Source: a virus
Lineage: Duplodnaviria > Heunggongvirae > Uroviricota > Caudoviricetes
Direction: 5' to 3' (one strand)
Virus record (IMG/VR): IMGVR_UViG_2660238408_000005
Length of the DNA: 6,055 nt
Translations under genes and position numbers: made by a program
Shown: positions 975 through 6,055 of the stretch, piece by piece
Layout of the letters: each line of letters begins with the position of its first letter
Numbering within the stretch: position 1 is the stretch's first letter
The notes under the pieces: model-generated
Seen by the model: only the letters and a program-made list of their open reading frames with translations
Database searches by the model: none
Told to the model about the DNA's origin: nothing

Positions 975-2362
975 CAACTCCAGTATGGCGTAACGATGAC
1001 CTTGAAGGCGCTGTCATCGGCGCGTTCTTTCTGCGCGGAGCAGATCCTGAAGTGATGGATATTCTGGCCACACTGCCAGCGGACGTTTTTTCTGTACGAG
1101 CGTATCAGGATATCTATACAGGCATCTGCAGACAGGCCCGTGTTTCAGGAGTGATTGACCCCGTGCTGTTGTGTAATGAGATGCCGGAACTTGCCCCGGT
1201 GATTACTGATACCGGGCGTAAAACCTGGGTGAAGTCTTCACTGGAGCACTATGTTGCAGCGTTGCGGCGCAATGCCGCACTGCGCGATGCAGAAAAAACA
1301 CTGAATGAGGCGCTGCAGAAATTACGTGATGCGCATACCTGTGAAGCAGCTGAAGATGCCCTGAAGGATGCGCAGAACATGATGGTCACACTGTCGACAG
1401 GAAAGGGCGTCATTCAGCCGGTACATATTGATGATGTGCTTCCGGAAGTGGTTGAGCGTGTTGAATGCCGGAATCAGGGGCTGGAGAAATCCAGGACGTT
1501 GATGACCGGTATTGATGAACTGGACGCAAAAACAGGCGGTATGGAGCCCGGAGACCTGGTATTCATTGCCGCCCGTCCTTCGATGGGGAAAACCGAACTT
1601 GCGCTGGACATCATCGACAAGGTGACTGAGCAGGGGCATGGTGTGCTTCTGTTCACCATGGAGATGGCGAACATCCAGATTGGTGAACGTATGGTGTCTG
1701 CGGCTGGAGGGATGCCAGTATCACGCCTGAAATCTGTGGCTCACTTTGAAGATGAAGACTGGACGCGTTTCTCACAAGGGGTGGGGCGGATGACCGGGCG
1801 CAATATCTGGATGGTGGACCAGGCGAACCTGGCCATTGATGAGATATGCGCAACAACGAAACACCACCTGATTAAATATCCGGAAACGGCGCTGGTGGTG
1901 GTTGATTATCTCGGGCTGATAAAAACCCGAACCACGGGGCGTCATGACCTTGCCGTGGGTGAAATCTCAAAGGGGCTTAAAGGCCTGGCAAAATCCGGTG
2001 GTTTTCCGTTGATTGCGCTGAGCCAGCTCTCCCGCGGTGTGGAGTCCAGACCCAATAAACGTCCCATGAACTCAGACCTGAAAAATTCCGGAGAAATAGA
2101 GGCGGATGCAGACATCATTCTGATGCTTTACAGGGATGAAGTGTACAACCCGGATACGCAGGCCAGGGGCATCGCAGAAATCAATATCACGAAACAACGT
2201 AACGGTTCTCTGGGAACGATTTACCGGCGTTTTTATAACGGACATTTTCTGCCTGTGGACCAGGAAAGTGCACGGGTGCTTTCCACTCCCATGAAGCCCG
2301 GCAATCCGCGCAGATACAGTAATAAACGAACTGACAGCAGTAAGATGGAGCGTTTCTTTTGA
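971..2362 (+). CDS. DnaB-family replicative DNA helicase (phage-encoded)
   Basis: 463 aa. Walker A GDLVFIAARPSMGKTELA, Walker B-like VVVDYLGLI, and ALSQLSR...RPMNSDLKNSGEIEADADIILMLYRDEVY, which parallels E. coli DnaB motifs (SQLNR, DADLIMFIYRDEVY, from memory). Has a DnaB-like N-terminal domain. Translationally coupled to the upstream loader gene. Confidence 0.9.
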   Translation: MTTPVWRNDDLEGAVIGAFFLRGADPEVMDILATLPADVFSVRAYQDIYTGICRQARVSGVIDPVLLCNEMPELAPVITDTGRKTWVKSSLEHYVAALRRNAALRDAEKTLNEALQKLRDAHTCEAAEDALKDAQNMMVTLSTGKGVIQPVHIDDVLPEVVERVECRNQGLEKSRTLMTGIDELDAKTGGMEPGDLVFIAARPSMGKTELALDIIDKVTEQGHGVLLFTMEMANIQIGERMVSAAGGMPVSRLKSVAHFEDEDWTRFSQGVGRMTGRNIWMVDQANLAIDEICATTKHHLIKYPETALVVVDYLGLIKTRTTGRHDLAVGEISKGLKGLAKSGGFPLIALSQLSRGVESRPNKRPMNSDLKNSGEIEADADIILMLYRDEVYNPDTQARGIAEINITKQRNGSLGTIYRRFYNGHFLPVDQESARVLSTPMKPGNPRRYSNKRTDSSKMERFF

Positions 2363-2616
2363 ACAACCAGACAATGACTTTTACCCCTGAACAATTGCGT
2401 AAACACGCGCAGGAAATGCTGCGTCATGCTGAACAACTCGAAAAAACGGGCATAACAAAAGATGCTATCCGTAAAGATATGGTACCCGCGCTTCGGGAAC
2501 TGATGCAGGCGAAGCATCGCGCACAGAAAGCAGTAGATGAGCTGGTGGACTGTGTGGCAGAGCTGGAAACCAGAGTCGGAAAGTTTGAAAAACTGGTGCA
2601 GGAGGCGCTGCGCTGA
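2359..2616 (+). CDS. Hypothetical small protein, predicted all-helical / coiled-coil, nin-region position
   Basis: 85-aa ORF with TTG start at 2359 overlapping the helicase stop (TTGA), GGAG at 2347-2350 with an 8-nt spacer. Alternative ATG at 2374 (80 aa) has no SD. Charged, helical composition (EQLEK...RELMQAKHRAQKAVDELVD). No family recognised. Confidence 0.5.
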   Translation: MNNQTMTFTPEQLRKHAQEMLRHAEQLEKTGITKDAIRKDMVPALRELMQAKHRAQKAVDELVDCVAELETRVGKFEKLVQEALR

Positions 2617-3483: not shown

Positions 3484-3559
3484 GGCCCTTTAGCTCAGTT
3501 GGNNNNNNNNNNNNNNNNNNNNNNNNNNNNNNNNNNNNNNNNNNNNNNNNNNNNNNNNN
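3484..3559 (+). tRNA. tRNA gene, 5' end only visible (3484-3502); remainder is masked, so isotype is undetermined and the 3' coordinate is an estimate
   Basis: GGCCCTT-T-A-GCTC-AGTTGG gives a 7-nt acceptor arm, U8, A9, D-stem GCTC and the canonical D-loop AGTTGG. This resembles the 5' end of enterobacterial tRNAs such as Ile/Thr/Lys (from memory). tRNA genes between Q and the lysis genes are typical of lambdoid and Stx-type prophages. Confidence 0.5.
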
Positions 3560-3917
3560 NNNNNNNNNNNNNNNNNNNNNNNNNNNNNNNNNNNNNNNNN
3601 NNNNNNNNNNNNNNNNNNNNNNNNNNNNNNNNNNNNNNNNNNNNNNNNNNNNNNNNNNNNNNNNNNNNNNNNNNNNNNNNNNNNNNNNNNNNNNNNNNNN
3701 NNNNNNNNNNNNNNNNNNNNNNNNNNNNNNNNNNNNNNNNNNNNNNNNNNNNNNNNNNNNNNNNNNNNNNNNNNNNNNNNNNNNNNNNNNNNNNNNNNNN
3801 NNNNNNNNNNNNNNNNNNNNNNNNNNNNNNNNNNNNNNNNNNNNNNNNNNNNNNNNNNNNNNNNNNNNNNNNNNNNNNNNNNNNNNNNNNNNNNNNNNNN
3901 NNNNNNNNNNNNNNNNN
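3503..3917. other. Masked / undetermined sequence (415 N)
   Basis: A run of N directly visible in the sequence. Nothing inside can be annotated. It is flanked 5' by the tRNA start and 3' by a T7 tract. Confidence 1.
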
Positions 3918-4136: not shown

Positions 4137-4352
4137 ATGAAATCCATGGACAAAATTTCAACGGGCATTGCCTACGGCACCTCCGCCGGCAGTGCCGGCT
4201 ACTGGTTTTTGCAGTGGTTGGATCAGGTCAGGCCATCACAGTGGGCTGCGATTGGTGTGCTGGGAAGTCTGCTTCTGGGGCTTCTGACTTATCTGACGAA
4301 TCTGTATTTCAAAATAAGAGAAGACAAGCGTAAGGCTGCACGGGGAGAGTAA
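4137..4352 (+). CDS. S: Class II holin (pinholin), phage 21 S21 type, with dual-start motif
   Basis: 71 aa beginning [31 protein letters not shown]...[36 protein letters not shown], essentially collinear with phage 21 S21 as recalled. Two TMDs (a Gly/Ala-rich SAR-like TMD1, then TMD2) and a charged C-tail. Met1-Lys2-Ser3-Met4 gives the antiholin/holin dual start (ATG 4137 and 4146). Strong SD GGAGGT at 4125-4130. Confidence 0.9.
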
Positions 4353-4355
4353 ATA

Positions 4356-4985
4356 ATGAAGCATGAAGAAATGAATCAGCGATTCAATCACCTGGAAAAT
4401 GAAATCACTGAGCTTAATAAAAAATTGTCGGCGTTGGTGAGTTCTGAAGATGAAAACAAACGCCGCGATGAGCATTATGCGGCGATTTACGATTACTGCC
4501 ACAAAGTCGCTCACGAGACTTTTATGAAGTTTTTGCAGGAAAAGTTTTTACCGGCCGCATTGTCAGAAAAAGAGGCGGCTTACCTGCGGCCTGAGTACGT
4601 CATTACGGTTAACAGTGCCGGAGAGGAAGAGCATAAAAGTGATTTTATTGCGTCTGCACCGGATAAAGACCAGGAACCCCATCGGCCTTTCAGGGTTTCC
4701 TGTGAAGAGGGTGAGTTCGTCGTTTATGAGAACGGAAAACCTGTCCGGGCATCGCATCATCACTGCCTGAAAATTATTAATCTCGCTATCAGATGCCTGA
4801 AAGACGAAAACACCAGAGTTATGAAACGCATTGGCCGTTGCATGGGGTATTTGCAGGTGGCGGCAGAGATTGAAGCACTTGCCAGTGGTGCAGACATGGA
4901 TGCTGCGGTGCGGGAGGCTCTTCTTCGTGATTTCAATACTCCCCCTTTAAGAAAGAGCCTGATGACTGGATCCAGCCGGGGCTGA
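4356..4985 (+). CDS. Hypothetical 209-aa soluble protein of unknown function inserted inside the lysis cassette (moron candidate)
   Basis: ATG 4356 lies 3 nt after the holin stop, with GGAG at 4344-4347 (8-nt spacer). Long open frame with no TM segment or signal peptide evident. Acidic, coiled-coil-like N-terminus (NQRFNHLENEITELNKKLSALVSSEDENKRRDEH), several Cys/His (HHHC, CxxxxxxxxC). First half is visibly AT-rich relative to its neighbours. No family recognised by eye. Confidence 0.6.
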   Translation: MKHEEMNQRFNHLENEITELNKKLSALVSSEDENKRRDEHYAAIYDYCHKVAHETFMKFLQEKFLPAALSEKEAAYLRPEYVITVNSAGEEEHKSDFIASAPDKDQEPHRPFRVSCEEGEFVVYENGKPVRASHHHCLKIINLAIRCLKDENTRVMKRIGRCMGYLQVAAEIEALASGADMDAAVREALLRDFNTPPLRKSLMTGSSRG

Positions 4986-5050
4986 CTTATCTTAAAAGGC
5001 GTATATAAGTTGGCTCGTTATTTGTTGCCGATAAATCCTGATAAATATCC

Positions 5051-5584
5051 ATGAGCGCAAAAATCAAATACGGCCTGTCGGCTGCTGTTCTGGCGCTGAT
5101 TGCCGCAGGCGCGTCTGCTCCCCAGATACTTGACCAGTTTCTGAACGAAAAAGAGGGTAATCACACAACGGCATACCGTGATGGTTCTGGCATATGGACC
5201 ATCTGTCGTGGTGCCACAATGGTGGATGGTAAGCCTGTCATACCGGGAATGAAGCTGTCGAAGGAAAAATGTGACCAGGTTAACGCTATTGAACGTGATA
5301 AGGCGCTGGCATGGGTGGAGCGCAATATTAAAGTACCTCTGACCGAACCCCAGAAAGCGGGTATAGCGTCATTTTGCCCCTATAACATTGGCCCCGGTAA
5401 GTGTTTCCCGTCGACGTTTTATAAGCGGCTGAATGCCGGTGATCGTAAGGGCGCATGCGAGGCGATTCGCTGGTGGATAAAAGATGTTGGGCGCGATTGC
5501 CGCATACGTTCAAATAACTGCTATGGACAGGTTATTCGTCGTGACCAGGAAAGCGCATTAGCCTGTTGGGGGATAGATCAATGA
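5051..5584 (+). CDS. R: SAR endolysin (T4-lysozyme-like / GH24 muramidase, R21 type)
   Basis: 177 aa. N-terminal weakly hydrophobic Gly/Ala-rich signal-anchor-release segment [21 protein letters not shown]. Catalytic triad at E35, D44, T50 in [24 protein letters not shown], the same spacing as the E-8-D-5-T triad of phage lysozymes, with numbering identical to R21 as recalled. No clear SD upstream. Confidence 0.9.
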
Positions 5585-5985
5585 GCAGAGTCACCGCGAT
5601 TATCTCCGCTCTGGTTATCTGCATCATCGTCTGCCTGTCATGGGCTGTTAATCATTACCGTGATAACGCCATTACCTACAAAGAGCAGCGCGACAAAAAC
5701 GCCGGAGAACTGAAGCTGGCGAACGCAACCATTACTGACATGCAGCAGCGCCAGCGTGATGCTGATGCACTCGATGCTAAATACACGAAGGAGTTAGCTG
5801 ATGCGAAAGCTGAAAATGATGCTCTTCGGCGCAAGCTTGATAATGGTGGTCGGGTGCTCGTCAAAGGAAAATGCCCTGTGCCATCCTCAGCCGAAACCTC
5901 CAGCGCCTCCGGCATGGGCAATGATGCCACCGTCGAACTCTCTCCAGTTGCTGGACGAAACGTTCTCGGTATCCGGGACGGGTGA
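5581..5985 (+). CDS. Rz: Rz-like i-spanin (inner-membrane spanin subunit)
   Basis: ATG 5581 overlaps the endolysin stop (ATGA). N-terminal [21 protein letters not shown] plus a coiled-coil region. The first ~85 aa are near-identical to lambda Rz as recalled ([34 protein letters not shown]...[19 protein letters not shown]); the C-terminal portion diverges and is shorter. The ORF track start at 5566 is an upstream extension. Confidence 0.85.
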
Positions 5986-5995
5986 GGTAGCCTGA
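5801..5995 (+). CDS. Rz1: Rz1-like o-spanin (outer-membrane lipoprotein), overlapping Rz in the +1 frame
   Basis: 64 aa. Signal peptide [19 protein letters not shown] with lipobox VVGC, and proline-rich mature part ([16 protein letters not shown]) resembling lambda Rz1 (..VVGC.SK...PPPPPAW.MQPP, from memory). SD GAAGGAG at 5787-5793 with a 7-nt spacer. Ends 10 nt past the Rz stop. Confidence 0.8.
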
Positions 5996-6046: not shown

Positions 6047-6055
6047 ATGAGCAGA
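6047..6055 (+). CDS. Start of next late-region gene (truncated by window end; product unknown)
   Basis: ATG at 6047 preceded by GAAGGAG at 6034-6040 (6-nt spacer). Only 3 codons are visible (MSR). Confidence 0.3.

What the first reader, a model, noticed from the sequence alone, without database searches (positions are those of the whole stretch)
4356..4985. Unrecognised 209-aa gene wedged between pinholin and SAR endolysin
In phage 21-type cassettes the holin is normally followed directly by the endolysin. Here a 630-nt ORF is inserted with tight coupling to the holin (3-nt gap, its own SD) and is followed by a 65-nt AT-rich spacer before an endolysin that lacks an SD. The protein looks soluble, has a coiled-coil-like acidic N-terminus and Cys/His clusters, and matches no family I recognise. 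Its first half is more AT-rich than its neighbours, which suggests a horizontally acquired moron. Candidate roles are lysis-timing regulator, superinfection-exclusion or abortive-infection factor, or prophage-expressed host-modulating cargo. Small ORFs at this position occur in some E. coli prophages (ydfR in Qin, from memory), but that protein is about half this size.
Basis: partly seen in the sequence, partly recalled or inferred. Interest (0 to 1): 0.78.

Follow-up and report, generated by a model that had tools for sequence, protein, structure and literature searches.

The report
Headless, frameshifted YdfR-family prophage gene
The 209-codon gene between the holin and the endolysin is real, but it is one variant of a catalogued, functionally unstudied E. 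coli/Salmonella prophage gene family that commonly fills this spot, and this copy lacks the family's N-terminal domain and has lost its conserved C-terminal tail to a one-base deletion.

Summary
A 630-nt ORF (4356-4985, +) sits 3 nt after an S21-type pinholin, behind a GGGGAG inside the holin's last codons. It lies 65 nt before an SD-less SAR endolysin.

The interpretation needs correcting.
- The holin-endolysin gap is a common, recombination-prone slot. It was occupied in 47 of 74 cassettes with the most similar holins, usually by ydfR (DUF1327).
- The ORF belongs to PHROG 1085 (E = 1e-73). It matches the coiled-coil, linker and C-domain of long "YdfR family" proteins (82% identity to a 333-aa one) but lacks the DUF1327 head.
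- The three-part architecture is shared with a divergent Salmonella branch, so it is probably ancestral.
- The family is small (39 clusters among 1.84 billion representatives) but not rare: C-domain DNA is in 787 of 5426 complete E. coli genomes.
- The C-domain is under purifying selection (dN/dS 0.24).
- This allele has a 1-nt deletion that replaces the conserved 21-residue tail with 12 unrelated residues.

No Pfam, defence-system or structural relative was found, and there is no own promoter or terminator and no foreign GC3. Function remains unknown. My best guess is a cytoplasmic late-phase accessory protein that works with the RNase E-binding DUF1327 heads. Interest is moderate to low.

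The parts
4137..4352 (+). S21-type class II pinholin, 71 aa, with Met1/Met4 dual start
   Evidence: PF04971, E = 5.5e-35. phrog_9876 and phrog_20, both holin. RefSeq annotates 'class II holin family protein' in the 99.8% identical prophage.
4342..4349 (+). SD-like GGGGAGAG inside the last holin codons. It serves the slot gene and implies translational coupling.
   Evidence: Read from the sequence. The same GGGGAG(A/T)T(A/G)(A/G) plus 3-6 nt plus ATG junction occurs in every occupied slot type.
4356..4985 (+). The 209-aa ORF: a headless, tail-frameshifted member of the long YdfR family (PHROG 1085)
   Evidence: ORF listing. phrog_1085, E = 1.2e-73, matching profile positions 117-288 of 296. Homologs. 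RefSeq WP_001300760.1 'hypothetical protein'.
4356..4550 (+). Module B (aa 1-65): helical hairpin / coiled coil. It is shared with DUF1327+B proteins and with proteins that carry a different C-domain.
   Evidence: Alignments. AF2 helices 3-27 and 31-63 with pLDDT about 75-80. dN/dS 0.45. phrog_2091, E = 5.8e-13. P0118 and P0146.
4551..4676 (+). Acidic, variable, disordered linker (aa 66-107)
   Evidence: pLDDT below 50 for residues 78-107. dN/dS about 1.3 with indels between alleles. pI 4.45.
4677..4943 (+). Conserved C-domain (aa 108-196): three beta-strands plus three helices, with the motif MKRIGRCMGYLQVAAEIEA
4941..4945 (+). C5 run: the site of the 1-nt deletion (CC[G/A]CCC became CCCCC) that frameshifts the last codons
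   Evidence: DNA alignment against five other alleles. Allele table.
4943..5008 (+). Ancestral C-terminal tail, now in the -1 frame: PFKKEPDDWIQPGLTYLKRRI*. It begins with CCCTTTA (4943-4949), which the current frame reads as the X XXY YYZ heptamer C CCT TTA.
   Evidence: Translations. The tail is identical to that of P0004. The motif is conserved in the Salmonella branch.
5009..5050 (+). True intergenic leader of the endolysin. It has no SD and contains the conserved GATAAATCCTGATAAATATCC (5030-5050).
   Evidence: The same leader precedes the endolysin ATG in nearly all occupied-slot types, whatever the slot gene.
5051..5584 (+). R21-like SAR endolysin, 177 aa
   Evidence: PF00959, E = 5.4e-24. 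phrog_7 endolysin. The Gly/Ala-rich N-terminal segment is read from the sequence.
5581..5985 (+). Rz i-spanin. Its start overlaps the endolysin stop (ATGA).
   Evidence: PF03245, E = 2.4e-23. phrog_13. RefSeq start in L005.
5801..5995 (+). Rz1 o-spanin in the +1 frame of Rz, with lipobox LIMVVGC
   Evidence: ORF translation. Rz1 is annotated in related cassettes.

Best explanation
**What it is (confidence about 0.9).** The ORF is a real gene of an E. coli lambdoid prophage. It occupies a recombination-prone slot between the S21-type pinholin and the SAR endolysin, which in most related cassettes holds a ydfR-family gene.

The family's full architecture has four parts:
- A: a DUF1327 head.
- B: a coiled-coil hairpin.
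- An acidic disordered linker.
- C: a small alpha/beta domain ending in the motif DNPPFK.xP..W..PG..YLK.R.

The window gene is a headless B-linker-C version with its own start codon. A 1-nt deletion at 4941-4945 replaces the conserved 21-residue tail with 12 unrelated residues.

**How it is expressed (inferred, about 0.7).** It has no promoter or terminator of its own. It is transcribed with the lysis genes from the Q-dependent late promoter and translated by coupling to the holin. The product is a soluble cytoplasmic protein of 24 kDa made late in lytic growth.

**What it does (inferred, about 0.3).** It is not part of the core lysis machinery. It is probably an accessory host-takeover factor that works together with DUF1327 heads. 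Head and body occur both fused and as adjacent separate genes. The head of YdfR has been reported to bind the catalytic half of RNase E and to co-purify RNA. The B hairpin would oligomerise or connect, and the C-domain plus tail would bind a still unknown partner.

Having lost both head and tail, this allele is probably weakened, or depends on heads supplied by other prophages.
For: **Identity and context**
- The prophage is 99.8% identical to one in E. coli CFSAN029787. Its gene order is Q, four tRNAs, holin, this gene, lysozyme, Rz.
- phrog_1085 match, E = 1.2e-73, to profile positions 117-288 of 296.

**Modular architecture**
- Slot genes of 104, 169, 213, 268 and 333 aa share modules with the ORF.
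- E. coli long forms align collinearly with the Salmonella branch across head, coiled coil and C-domain (hhalign probability 99.9%, E = 3.3e-34).
- A Salmonella head matches DUF1327 weakly (E = 0.0044).

**Slot occupancy**
- 47 of 74 cassettes are occupied.
- Left and right junctions are conserved across occupancy types.

**Selection**
- dN/dS is 0.24 (C), 0.45 (B) and 1.28 (linker).

**Frameshift**
- Shown: **Expression**
- No promoter or terminator above chance.
- No transmembrane segment.

**Head-body link**
- Fused A-B-C proteins exist: P0004, P0073, P0090.
- In L007 a B+C gene is followed by a separate DUF1327 gene scoring 35.4 bits against a 25-bit cut-off.
- YdfR residues 1-72 bind RNase E 1-597 in two-hybrid and pull-down assays, and RNA co-purifies (PMC13232886).
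- DUF1327 DNA is present in 4352 of 5426 complete E. coli genomes, with up to 10 copies per genome.

**Dispensable for lysis**
- 27 of 74 related cassettes have no slot gene.
- Salmonella members lie upstream of the holin.
Against: - No experiment or homology gives a function for modules B or C.
- The RNase E link rests on one study of the head alone. In that study YdfR overproduction changed few transcripts, and the window gene lacks the head.
- The structure model is only moderately confident (mean pLDDT 66), so a missed fold relationship is possible. The AlphaFold-database library could not be searched.
- Fusion and fission of adjacent genes in a mosaic region could reflect recombination accidents and not functional linkage.
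- Late-operon expression is inferred from gene order and consensus scans, not measured.
Confidence: 0.5

Rival explanations
1. Decaying allele. The window copy is a gene on its way to becoming a pseudogene. It has lost the DUF1327 head and the conserved C-terminal motif and no longer does anything useful.
For: - The 1-nt deletion removes a tail that is conserved from E. coli to Salmonella.
- An independent 1-nt deletion in the same short C-run exists in a 268-aa allele, giving a 260-aa protein.
- Another copy is annotated 'frameshifted', and a 108-aa truncated copy exists.
- In total 16 of 85 C-domain loci have a broken tail or are truncated.
Against: - The headless B+C architecture is itself widespread, has its own coupled start codon, and is under purifying selection.
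- 196 of 209 codons are intact.
- The allele is established: 14 IMG/VR loci, 7 complete genomes, and clusters of 181 and 101 member sequences.
- The tail is short and predicted to be disordered, so its loss may alter the activity without abolishing it.
Confidence: 0.25
2. Lysis-timing regulator. The protein modulates pinholin triggering or SAR-endolysin production or release. It would act directly, or through its position, because it takes the holin-coupled translation site and leaves the endolysin with an SD-less leader.
For: - The gene starts 3 nt after the holin stop, with the SD inside the holin.
- In occupied cassettes the endolysin always has the conserved SD-less leader. In unoccupied cassettes the endolysin start overlaps the holin stop behind GAGAGGTGA.
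- The gene is always found in or next to the lysis cassette.
Against: - The protein is cytoplasmic and has no membrane segment, whereas the pinholin and the SAR endolysin act in the membrane and periplasm.
- Salmonella homologs lie upstream of the holin and are separated from it by a reverse-strand gene.
- 27 of 74 related cassettes lack any slot gene.
- The fused head binds RNase E, which is not a lysis protein.
Confidence: 0.15
3. Prophage-expressed cargo (a moron). The gene is a superinfection-exclusion, abortive-infection or host-modulating factor made in the lysogen.
For: - The Q-to-lysis region is a known place for cargo. Toxin-antitoxin pairs lie next to the Salmonella homologs and downstream of Rz in the E. 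coli prophage.
- The slot content is highly mosaic.
Against: - No PADLOC match.
- No promoter or terminator above chance.
- Same strand as the late operon and translationally coupled within it.
- GC3 is the same as in the neighbouring genes.
Confidence: 0.07
4. Recoding. The deletion is compensated by -1 ribosomal frameshifting at C CCU UUA (4943-4949). The gene would then make both a 209-aa protein and a 216-aa protein (the in-frame -1 product) carrying the ancestral tail.
For: - The current frame reads a canonical X XXY YYZ heptamer.
- A -1 slip there gives exactly ...NTPPFKKEPDDWIQPGLTYLKRRI*, which is the family consensus.
- The out-of-frame tail is still identical in amino acids to that of P0004.
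Against: - The heptamer is an automatic by-product of deleting one base just upstream of an in-frame CCC TTT A.
- The downstream RNA folds no better than shuffled sequence (z = -0.49).
- The nearest upstream SD-like GGGAGG (4912-4917) ends 25 nt before the heptamer, too far to stimulate slipping by the known dnaX-type rule (my reading of the sequence plus general knowledge).
- The second frameshifted allele reads G CCT TTA, which is not canonical.
- The allele is too young for conservation of the tail to be informative.
Confidence: 0.05

Closest known systems
Long 'YdfR family' proteins of E. coli prophages (for example the 333-aa P0004 cluster and Stx2-converting phage 86 gp05, YP_794052.1, 268 aa)
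   Same: - Same slot, directly after the S21-type holin.
- 82% identity over 94% of the ORF to P0004.
- Same coiled coil, linker and C-domain.
- The ORF's out-of-frame tail is identical to the P0004 tail.
   Different: - The window protein lacks the N-terminal DUF1327 domain that gives these proteins their name.
- It has a frameshifted C-terminus.
YdfR of the Qin prophage (P76160; Pfam DUF1327, PF07041)
   Same: - Same genomic slot between holin and endolysin.
- Same holin-coupled start.
- Its domain is fused to B+C modules in the long forms.
   Different: - There is no sequence similarity to the window ORF, which corresponds only to the parts that YdfR (103 aa) lacks.
- The reported RNase E and RNA binding maps to YdfR residues 1-72 (PMC13232886), so it cannot be transferred directly.
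PHROG phrog_1085 (unknown function)
   Same: Strong profile match (E = 1.2e-73, 249 bits) over the whole ORF.
   Different: The ORF covers only profile positions 117-288 of 296. The first 116 positions (the head) and the last 8 are not matched.
Phage 21 lysis cassette (S21 pinholin, R21 SAR endolysin, Rz/Rz1)
   Same: Holin, endolysin and spanin families, the dual-start holin, and the gene order.
   Different: - In phage 21 itself, and in 27 of 74 sampled relatives, S abuts R (for phage 21 itself this is from memory).
- Here a slot gene intervenes, and the endolysin has a conserved SD-less leader.
Lambdoid morons (for example bor, lom, stx)
   Same: An accessory gene that is not needed for the core phage functions, in the variable Q-to-lysis region.
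   Different: No promoter or terminator of its own, and no compositional difference. It reads as part of the late operon.

Membership tests
Pfam DUF1327 / YdfR family (PF07041) | Presence of the DUF1327 domain | tested here: not met
   No PF07041 hit at E up to 0.1 for the ORF. Slot proteins of 104, 169 and 268 aa hit it at E = 1e-34 to 1e-45.
Pfam DUF1327 / YdfR family (PF07041) | Homology to the C-terminal extension of long-form YdfR family proteins | tested here: met
   82% identity over 94% of the ORF to the 333-aa P0004, which NCBI names 'YdfR family protein'.
Pfam DUF1327 / YdfR family (PF07041) | Position directly downstream of an S21-type holin with a coupled start | tested here: met
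   3-nt gap with GGGGAG inside the holin. The same junction occurs in DUF1327-only cassettes.
PHROG phrog_1085 | Significant match to the family profile | tested here: met
   E = 1.2e-73, 249.1 bits, residues 1-209 against profile positions 117-288 of 296.
Moron (autonomous prophage cargo gene) | Own promoter and terminator flanking the gene | tested here: not met
   One promoter-like site, on the minus strand, and one terminator-like site inside the holin. Both counts are at or below the shuffle expectation. This is a consensus scan only, so the result is suggestive.
Moron (autonomous prophage cargo gene) | Base composition different from the neighbouring genes | tested here: not met
   GC3 is 0.495 for the ORF, 0.500 for the endolysin and 0.583 for the holin. 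The AT-rich module B has GC3 0.492.
Moron (autonomous prophage cargo gene) | Expression in the lysogen | not testable with these tools
   Needs transcript or protein data from uninduced lysogens.
Known anti-phage defence systems (PADLOC-DB 2.0) | Match to any defence-protein model | tested here: not met
   No family at E up to 1.
Phage 21-type lysis cassette | S21 pinholin, SAR endolysin and Rz/Rz1 in that order | tested here: met
   PF04971, PF00959 and PF03245 hits, plus an overlapping lipoprotein ORF.
Phage 21-type lysis cassette | Endolysin start abutting the holin stop | tested here: not met
   The interval is 698 nt here. It is -1 nt in 27 of 74 related cassettes.
Programmed -1 ribosomal frameshift site | X XXY YYZ heptamer in the zero frame | tested here: met
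   C CCT TTA at 4943-4949.
Programmed -1 ribosomal frameshift site | Stimulatory downstream RNA structure | tested here: not met
   Minimum free energy -16.2 kcal/mol against a shuffle mean of -14.8, z = -0.49.
Programmed -1 ribosomal frameshift site | Conservation of the two-frame arrangement among relatives | tested here: not met
   All other allele groups encode the tail in frame. The only other shifted allele has a non-canonical heptamer.
Programmed -1 ribosomal frameshift site | Detectable frameshift product | not testable with these tools
   Needs a reporter assay or mass spectrometry.

The most novel reading that the evidence does not exclude
The long YdfR family may be a modular phage system aimed at host RNA decay. 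The DUF1327 head docks on the catalytic half of RNase E. Module B is a coiled-coil connector. The C-domain, with its conserved C-terminal peptide, is an effector of a previously unseen fold.

Headless B+C proteins like this one would then work in trans, pairing through module B with heads (A or A+B proteins) encoded by other prophages in the same cell. This would be a form of cooperation between prophages.

A smaller additional possibility is that -1 slippage at C CCU UUA restores the lost tail in a fraction of the molecules.
Probability: 0.12. Interest if true: 0.65.

Novelty: new variant of a known kind. Interest (0 to 1): 0.33.

Why it matters
C-domain DNA of this family is present in about one in seven complete E. 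coli genomes (787 of 5426). DUF1327 heads are present in four of five, many of them in Shiga-toxin phages. The genes sit inside the cassette that times lysis and toxin release, yet I found no paper in the held library that describes the slot gene.

This analysis does three things:
- It shows that the many differently sized "hypothetical" and "YdfR family" genes in this slot are built from three recombining modules.
- It links the bodies to a head recently reported to bind RNase E.
- It suggests concrete experiments.

For this particular window the result is mostly a clarification. The gene is an ordinary and partly damaged member of a catalogued family. It is not a new insertion.

Tried and rejected
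- **Family libraries.** Pfam, NCBIfam and PADLOC scans of the ORF gave nothing above noise.
- **Solved structures by sequence.** A profile of 70 sequences gave nothing (best E = 0.41).
- **First AlphaFold run.** An 18-sequence, E. coli-only alignment gave mean pLDDT 45, which is unusable.
- **Second AlphaFold run.** A 70-sequence E. coli plus Salmonella alignment headed by the intact relative P0002 gave mean pLDDT 66, with about 80 in the C-domain.
- **Fold searches on the second model.**
  - Foldseek against PDB: best E = 1.5.
  - Foldseek against BFVD: best E = 0.011 with TM 0.15.
  - The afdb50 library was not available.
- **Metal-binding idea.** Rejected, because the Cys and His residues are not conserved across the family.
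- **Foreign-origin idea.** Rejected on GC3.
- **Own promoter or terminator.** Not found.
- **Frameshift-stimulating RNA structure.** Not found.
- **Literature.** Searches for DUF1327/YdfR, the heptamer and Stx-phage lysis cassettes found only the RNase E interaction study of YdfR. Nothing was found on the slot gene's B and C modules.
Full report
**1. The observation**

The window carries a forward ORF at 4356-4985 (ATG to TGA, 209 aa).
- It starts 3 nt after the stop of a 71-aa holin (4137-4352). GGGGAGAG (4342-4349) lies inside the holin's last codons.
- It ends 65 nt before the ATG (5051) of a 177-aa lysozyme that has no SD.
- The flanks are an S21-type class II holin (PF04971, E = 5.5e-35; Met1/Met4 dual start), a phage lysozyme with a Gly/Ala-rich SAR-like N-terminus (PF00959, E = 5.4e-24), and Rz with an overlapping Rz1.
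- Upstream lie DnaC-like and DnaB replication genes, ninH, an antiterminator Q, and a run of N.

The window is 99.8% identical over the ORF to prophages in several complete E. coli genomes. In one of them (CFSAN029787) the order is Q, four tRNA genes, holin, this gene (RefSeq "hypothetical protein", WP_001300760.1), lysozyme, Rz, then a ParD/ParE pair.

**2. It is a real gene with relatives**

Pfam, NCBIfam and PADLOC give nothing for the protein. PHROGs gives a strong match to phrog_1085, of unknown function (E = 1.2e-73). The match covers only profile positions 117-288 of 296.

A search of 5.8 billion proteins finds 132 relatives, all from E. coli or Shigella. Many are longer (268-333 aa), carry an N-terminal DUF1327 domain, and are named "YdfR family protein" by NCBI. 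The closest of these, P0004 (333 aa), is 82% identical over 94% of the ORF.

An exhaustive profile search of 1.84 billion cluster representatives finds only 39 clusters. These include a divergent branch that a second search shows to be Salmonella enterica prophage proteins, all annotated as hypothetical.

**3. Modular anatomy**

Alignments show four parts:
- A: the DUF1327 head, about 80-100 aa, absent from the window.
- B: a coiled-coil segment, window aa 1-65.
- A variable acidic linker, aa 66-107.
- C: a conserved domain, aa 108-196, followed in all other allele groups by the tail PPFKK.P..W..PG..YLK.RI.

Slot genes in annotated phages are A alone (104 aa, "YdfR family"), A+B (169 aa), B+C (213 aa) and A+linker+C (268 aa; Stx2 phage 86 gp05).

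A profile-profile comparison aligns the E. coli long forms with the Salmonella branch collinearly over head, coiled coil and C-domain (probability 99.9%, E = 3.3e-34). One Salmonella head also gives a weak DUF1327 hit (E = 0.0044). The A-B-C architecture is therefore probably ancestral, and the window gene is a headless derivative.

Module B also occurs joined to an unrelated C-terminal domain (P0118, P0146), as expected for a connector module.

In E. coli 2015C-3121 a B+C gene is followed by a separate 75-aa DUF1327 gene (35.4 bits against a cut-off of 25). Head and body thus occur both fused and split, which argues that they function together.

**4. The slot**

I fetched 80 IMG/VR loci with the holins most similar to the window's and 80 loci encoding the C-domain. 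I then measured the holin-to-endolysin interval in each.

Among 74 usable holin-selected cassettes:
- 27 have the endolysin start abutting the holin stop.
- 45 carry a DUF1327-only gene.
- 2 carry A+B.

This sample is biased towards close holin relatives, so the proportions are indicative only. Even so, an occupied slot is the majority state and not an oddity.

All occupied types share two junctions:
- Left: GGGGAG inside the holin end, then 3-6 nt, then ATG.
- Right: in nearly all types, the SD-less leader GATAAATCCTGATAAATATCC directly before the endolysin ATG (window 5030-5050).

Unoccupied cassettes have a different holin end (GAGAGGTGAATAATG) with the endolysin start overlapping the stop. 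The slot gene is therefore exchanged between conserved flanks.

In Salmonella the homologs lie in the same late region but upstream of the holin. They come after Q and toxin-antitoxin pairs and are followed by a small reverse-strand gene.

**5. Is it a moron?**

Promoter-like and terminator-like sites around the ORF do not exceed the shuffle expectation.

The first third is AT-rich (GC 0.39). Its GC3 (0.49) equals that of the rest of the ORF and of the endolysin (0.50). The bias therefore comes from the Lys/Glu/Asn-rich coiled coil.

Nothing marks the gene as an autonomous or compositionally foreign insertion.

**6. Selection and integrity**

Pairwise Nei-Gojobori dN/dS over 46 distinct alleles gives medians of 0.24 for the C-domain, 0.45 for module B and 1.28 for the linker. 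These are pairwise values in a recombining family and not a phylogenetic test. They still show constraint on B and C.

The window allele itself is damaged.
- Compared with five other alleles it lacks one base in the run CC[G/A]CCC (now CCCCC, 4941-4945).
- The protein therefore ends in LRKSLMTGSSRG.
- The -1 frame from 4943 reads PFKKEPDDWIQPGLTYLKRRI*, identical to the P0004 tail.
- That tail is conserved in the Salmonella branch.

This allele is not a sequencing error. It occurs in 14 of 85 C-domain loci, in 7 complete genomes at 99% identity or more, and in clusters of 181 and 101 member sequences.

Other broken copies exist:
- A second, independent one-base deletion in the same short C-run (ACGCCC became ACGCC) shortens a 268-aa allele to 260 aa.
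- One copy is annotated "frameshifted".
- One copy is truncated to 108 aa.

**7. Structure**

With E. coli sequences alone AlphaFold gave an unusable model (mean pLDDT 45). With 70 E. coli and Salmonella sequences, headed by the intact close relative P0002, it gave mean pLDDT 66:
- a helical hairpin (residues 3-63, pLDDT about 75-80);
- a disordered linker (78-107);
- a three-strand, three-helix C-domain (113-193, pLDDT about 80);
- a low-confidence tail.

The protein has no hydrophobic segment.

**8. What it most likely does**

*Shown:* the gene's identity, architecture, position, conservation and damage.

*Inferred:* the gene is transcribed from the Q-dependent late promoter and translated by coupling to the holin. 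It would then yield a cytoplasmic protein late in lytic growth.

*Function:* the only experimental lead for the family concerns the head. YdfR of Qin (residues 1-72) binds RNase E 1-597 in two-hybrid and pull-down assays and co-purifies RNA, although its overproduction changes few transcripts (PMC13232886).

Heads and bodies are fused or adjacent in many phages, and DUF1327 DNA is present in 4352 of 5426 complete E. coli genomes. My best guess, at about 0.3, is therefore that B+C is the partner-binding or effector half of a late-phase host-takeover factor that acts with DUF1327 heads.

The rivals are:
- a decaying allele (0.25);
- a lysis-timing regulator (0.15), which fits the coupling but not the cytoplasmic location, the Salmonella position or the frequent absence of the gene;
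- lysogen-expressed defence or cargo (0.07);
- recoding at the C CCT TTA heptamer created by the deletion (0.05). There is no stimulatory structure (z = -0.49) and no conservation of the arrangement.

**9. Comparison and verdict**

The gene is a member of PHROG 1085. It is homologous to the body of long "YdfR family" proteins, but it fails the defining test for DUF1327/YdfR membership because the domain is absent.

It is not a new insertion into a normally compact cassette. It is one of several interchangeable occupants of a known variable slot, in a headless and tail-frameshifted form.

Papers on Stx-phage lysis regions do not mention the slot gene, so the family is catalogued but unstudied. 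C-domain DNA occurs in 787 of 5426 complete E. coli genomes, which gives the family some general interest. The window copy itself is ordinary.

Scores: interest 0.33; novelty, new variant of a known kind.

Noticed in passing
window 3500-3917: The run of N corresponds to four tRNA genes (Ile, Arg, Thr, Gly) between Q and the holin in the 99.8% identical CFSAN029787 prophage (L005 4679-4989). A similar cluster (Met, Lys, Thr, Gly) is found in phage PhiR47_1.
   Followed up: partly
window 5030-5050; same element in most L008-L167 loci: A conserved SD-less leader, GATAAATCCTGATAAATATCC, contains a direct repeat of GATAAAT. It directly precedes the SAR-endolysin ATG in nearly all cassettes with an occupied slot. 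Cassettes without a slot gene instead have the endolysin start overlapping the holin stop behind GAGAGGTGA. How the endolysin is translated from this leader is unexplained.
   Followed up: partly
L001 3154-3468 (-), L002 2993-3307 (-), L007 2902-3189 (-), L168 3881-4141 (-), L170 3807-4124 (-): Long YdfR-family genes in E. coli Stx phages and in Salmonella prophages are often followed by a convergent reverse-strand gene of 86-105 aa with no Pfam match. It may be a partner gene. It is absent from the window.
   Followed up: partly
IMG/VR locus with the 260-aa allele; window 4941-4945: Two independent one-base deletions hit the same short C-run before TTTAAG in different alleles (CC[G/A]CCC became CCCCC; ACGCCC became ACGCC). 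Both shift into the same frame and stop at the corresponding TGA codon (window 4983-4985). This could be a mutational hot spot or selection for loss of the tail.
   Followed up: partly
P0118 (178 aa) and P0146 (201 aa): Module B (the coiled coil) is also found fused to a different, unrelated C-terminal domain (...HSFGGFHE...GPFFLKVER). Module B therefore behaves as a shared connector that is joined to alternative domains.
   Followed up: no
L007 2001-2897 (E. coli 2015C-3121): A headless B+C gene (213 aa) is followed by a separate 75-aa DUF1327 gene in the same slot. This is a split version of the fused A-B-C proteins.
   Followed up: yes
L005 7334-7868; window 6047-6055; L168 1136-1838; L170 2127-2781: Toxin-antitoxin pairs flank the lysis region. 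ParD/ParE lies just after Rz in the E. coli prophage, and the window ends at its start. ParE/HTH and HicA/HicB lie between Q and the YdfR-like gene in Salmonella.
   Followed up: no
window 2359-2616 (+): An 85-aa helical ORF lies between the DnaB-like helicase gene and ninH. It has no family match above noise and is annotated as hypothetical in RefSeq.
   Followed up: no
P0130 (3748 aa): A giant protein matched the linker region of the profile in 26 separate stretches. This is probably a low-complexity or repeat artefact.
   Followed up: no
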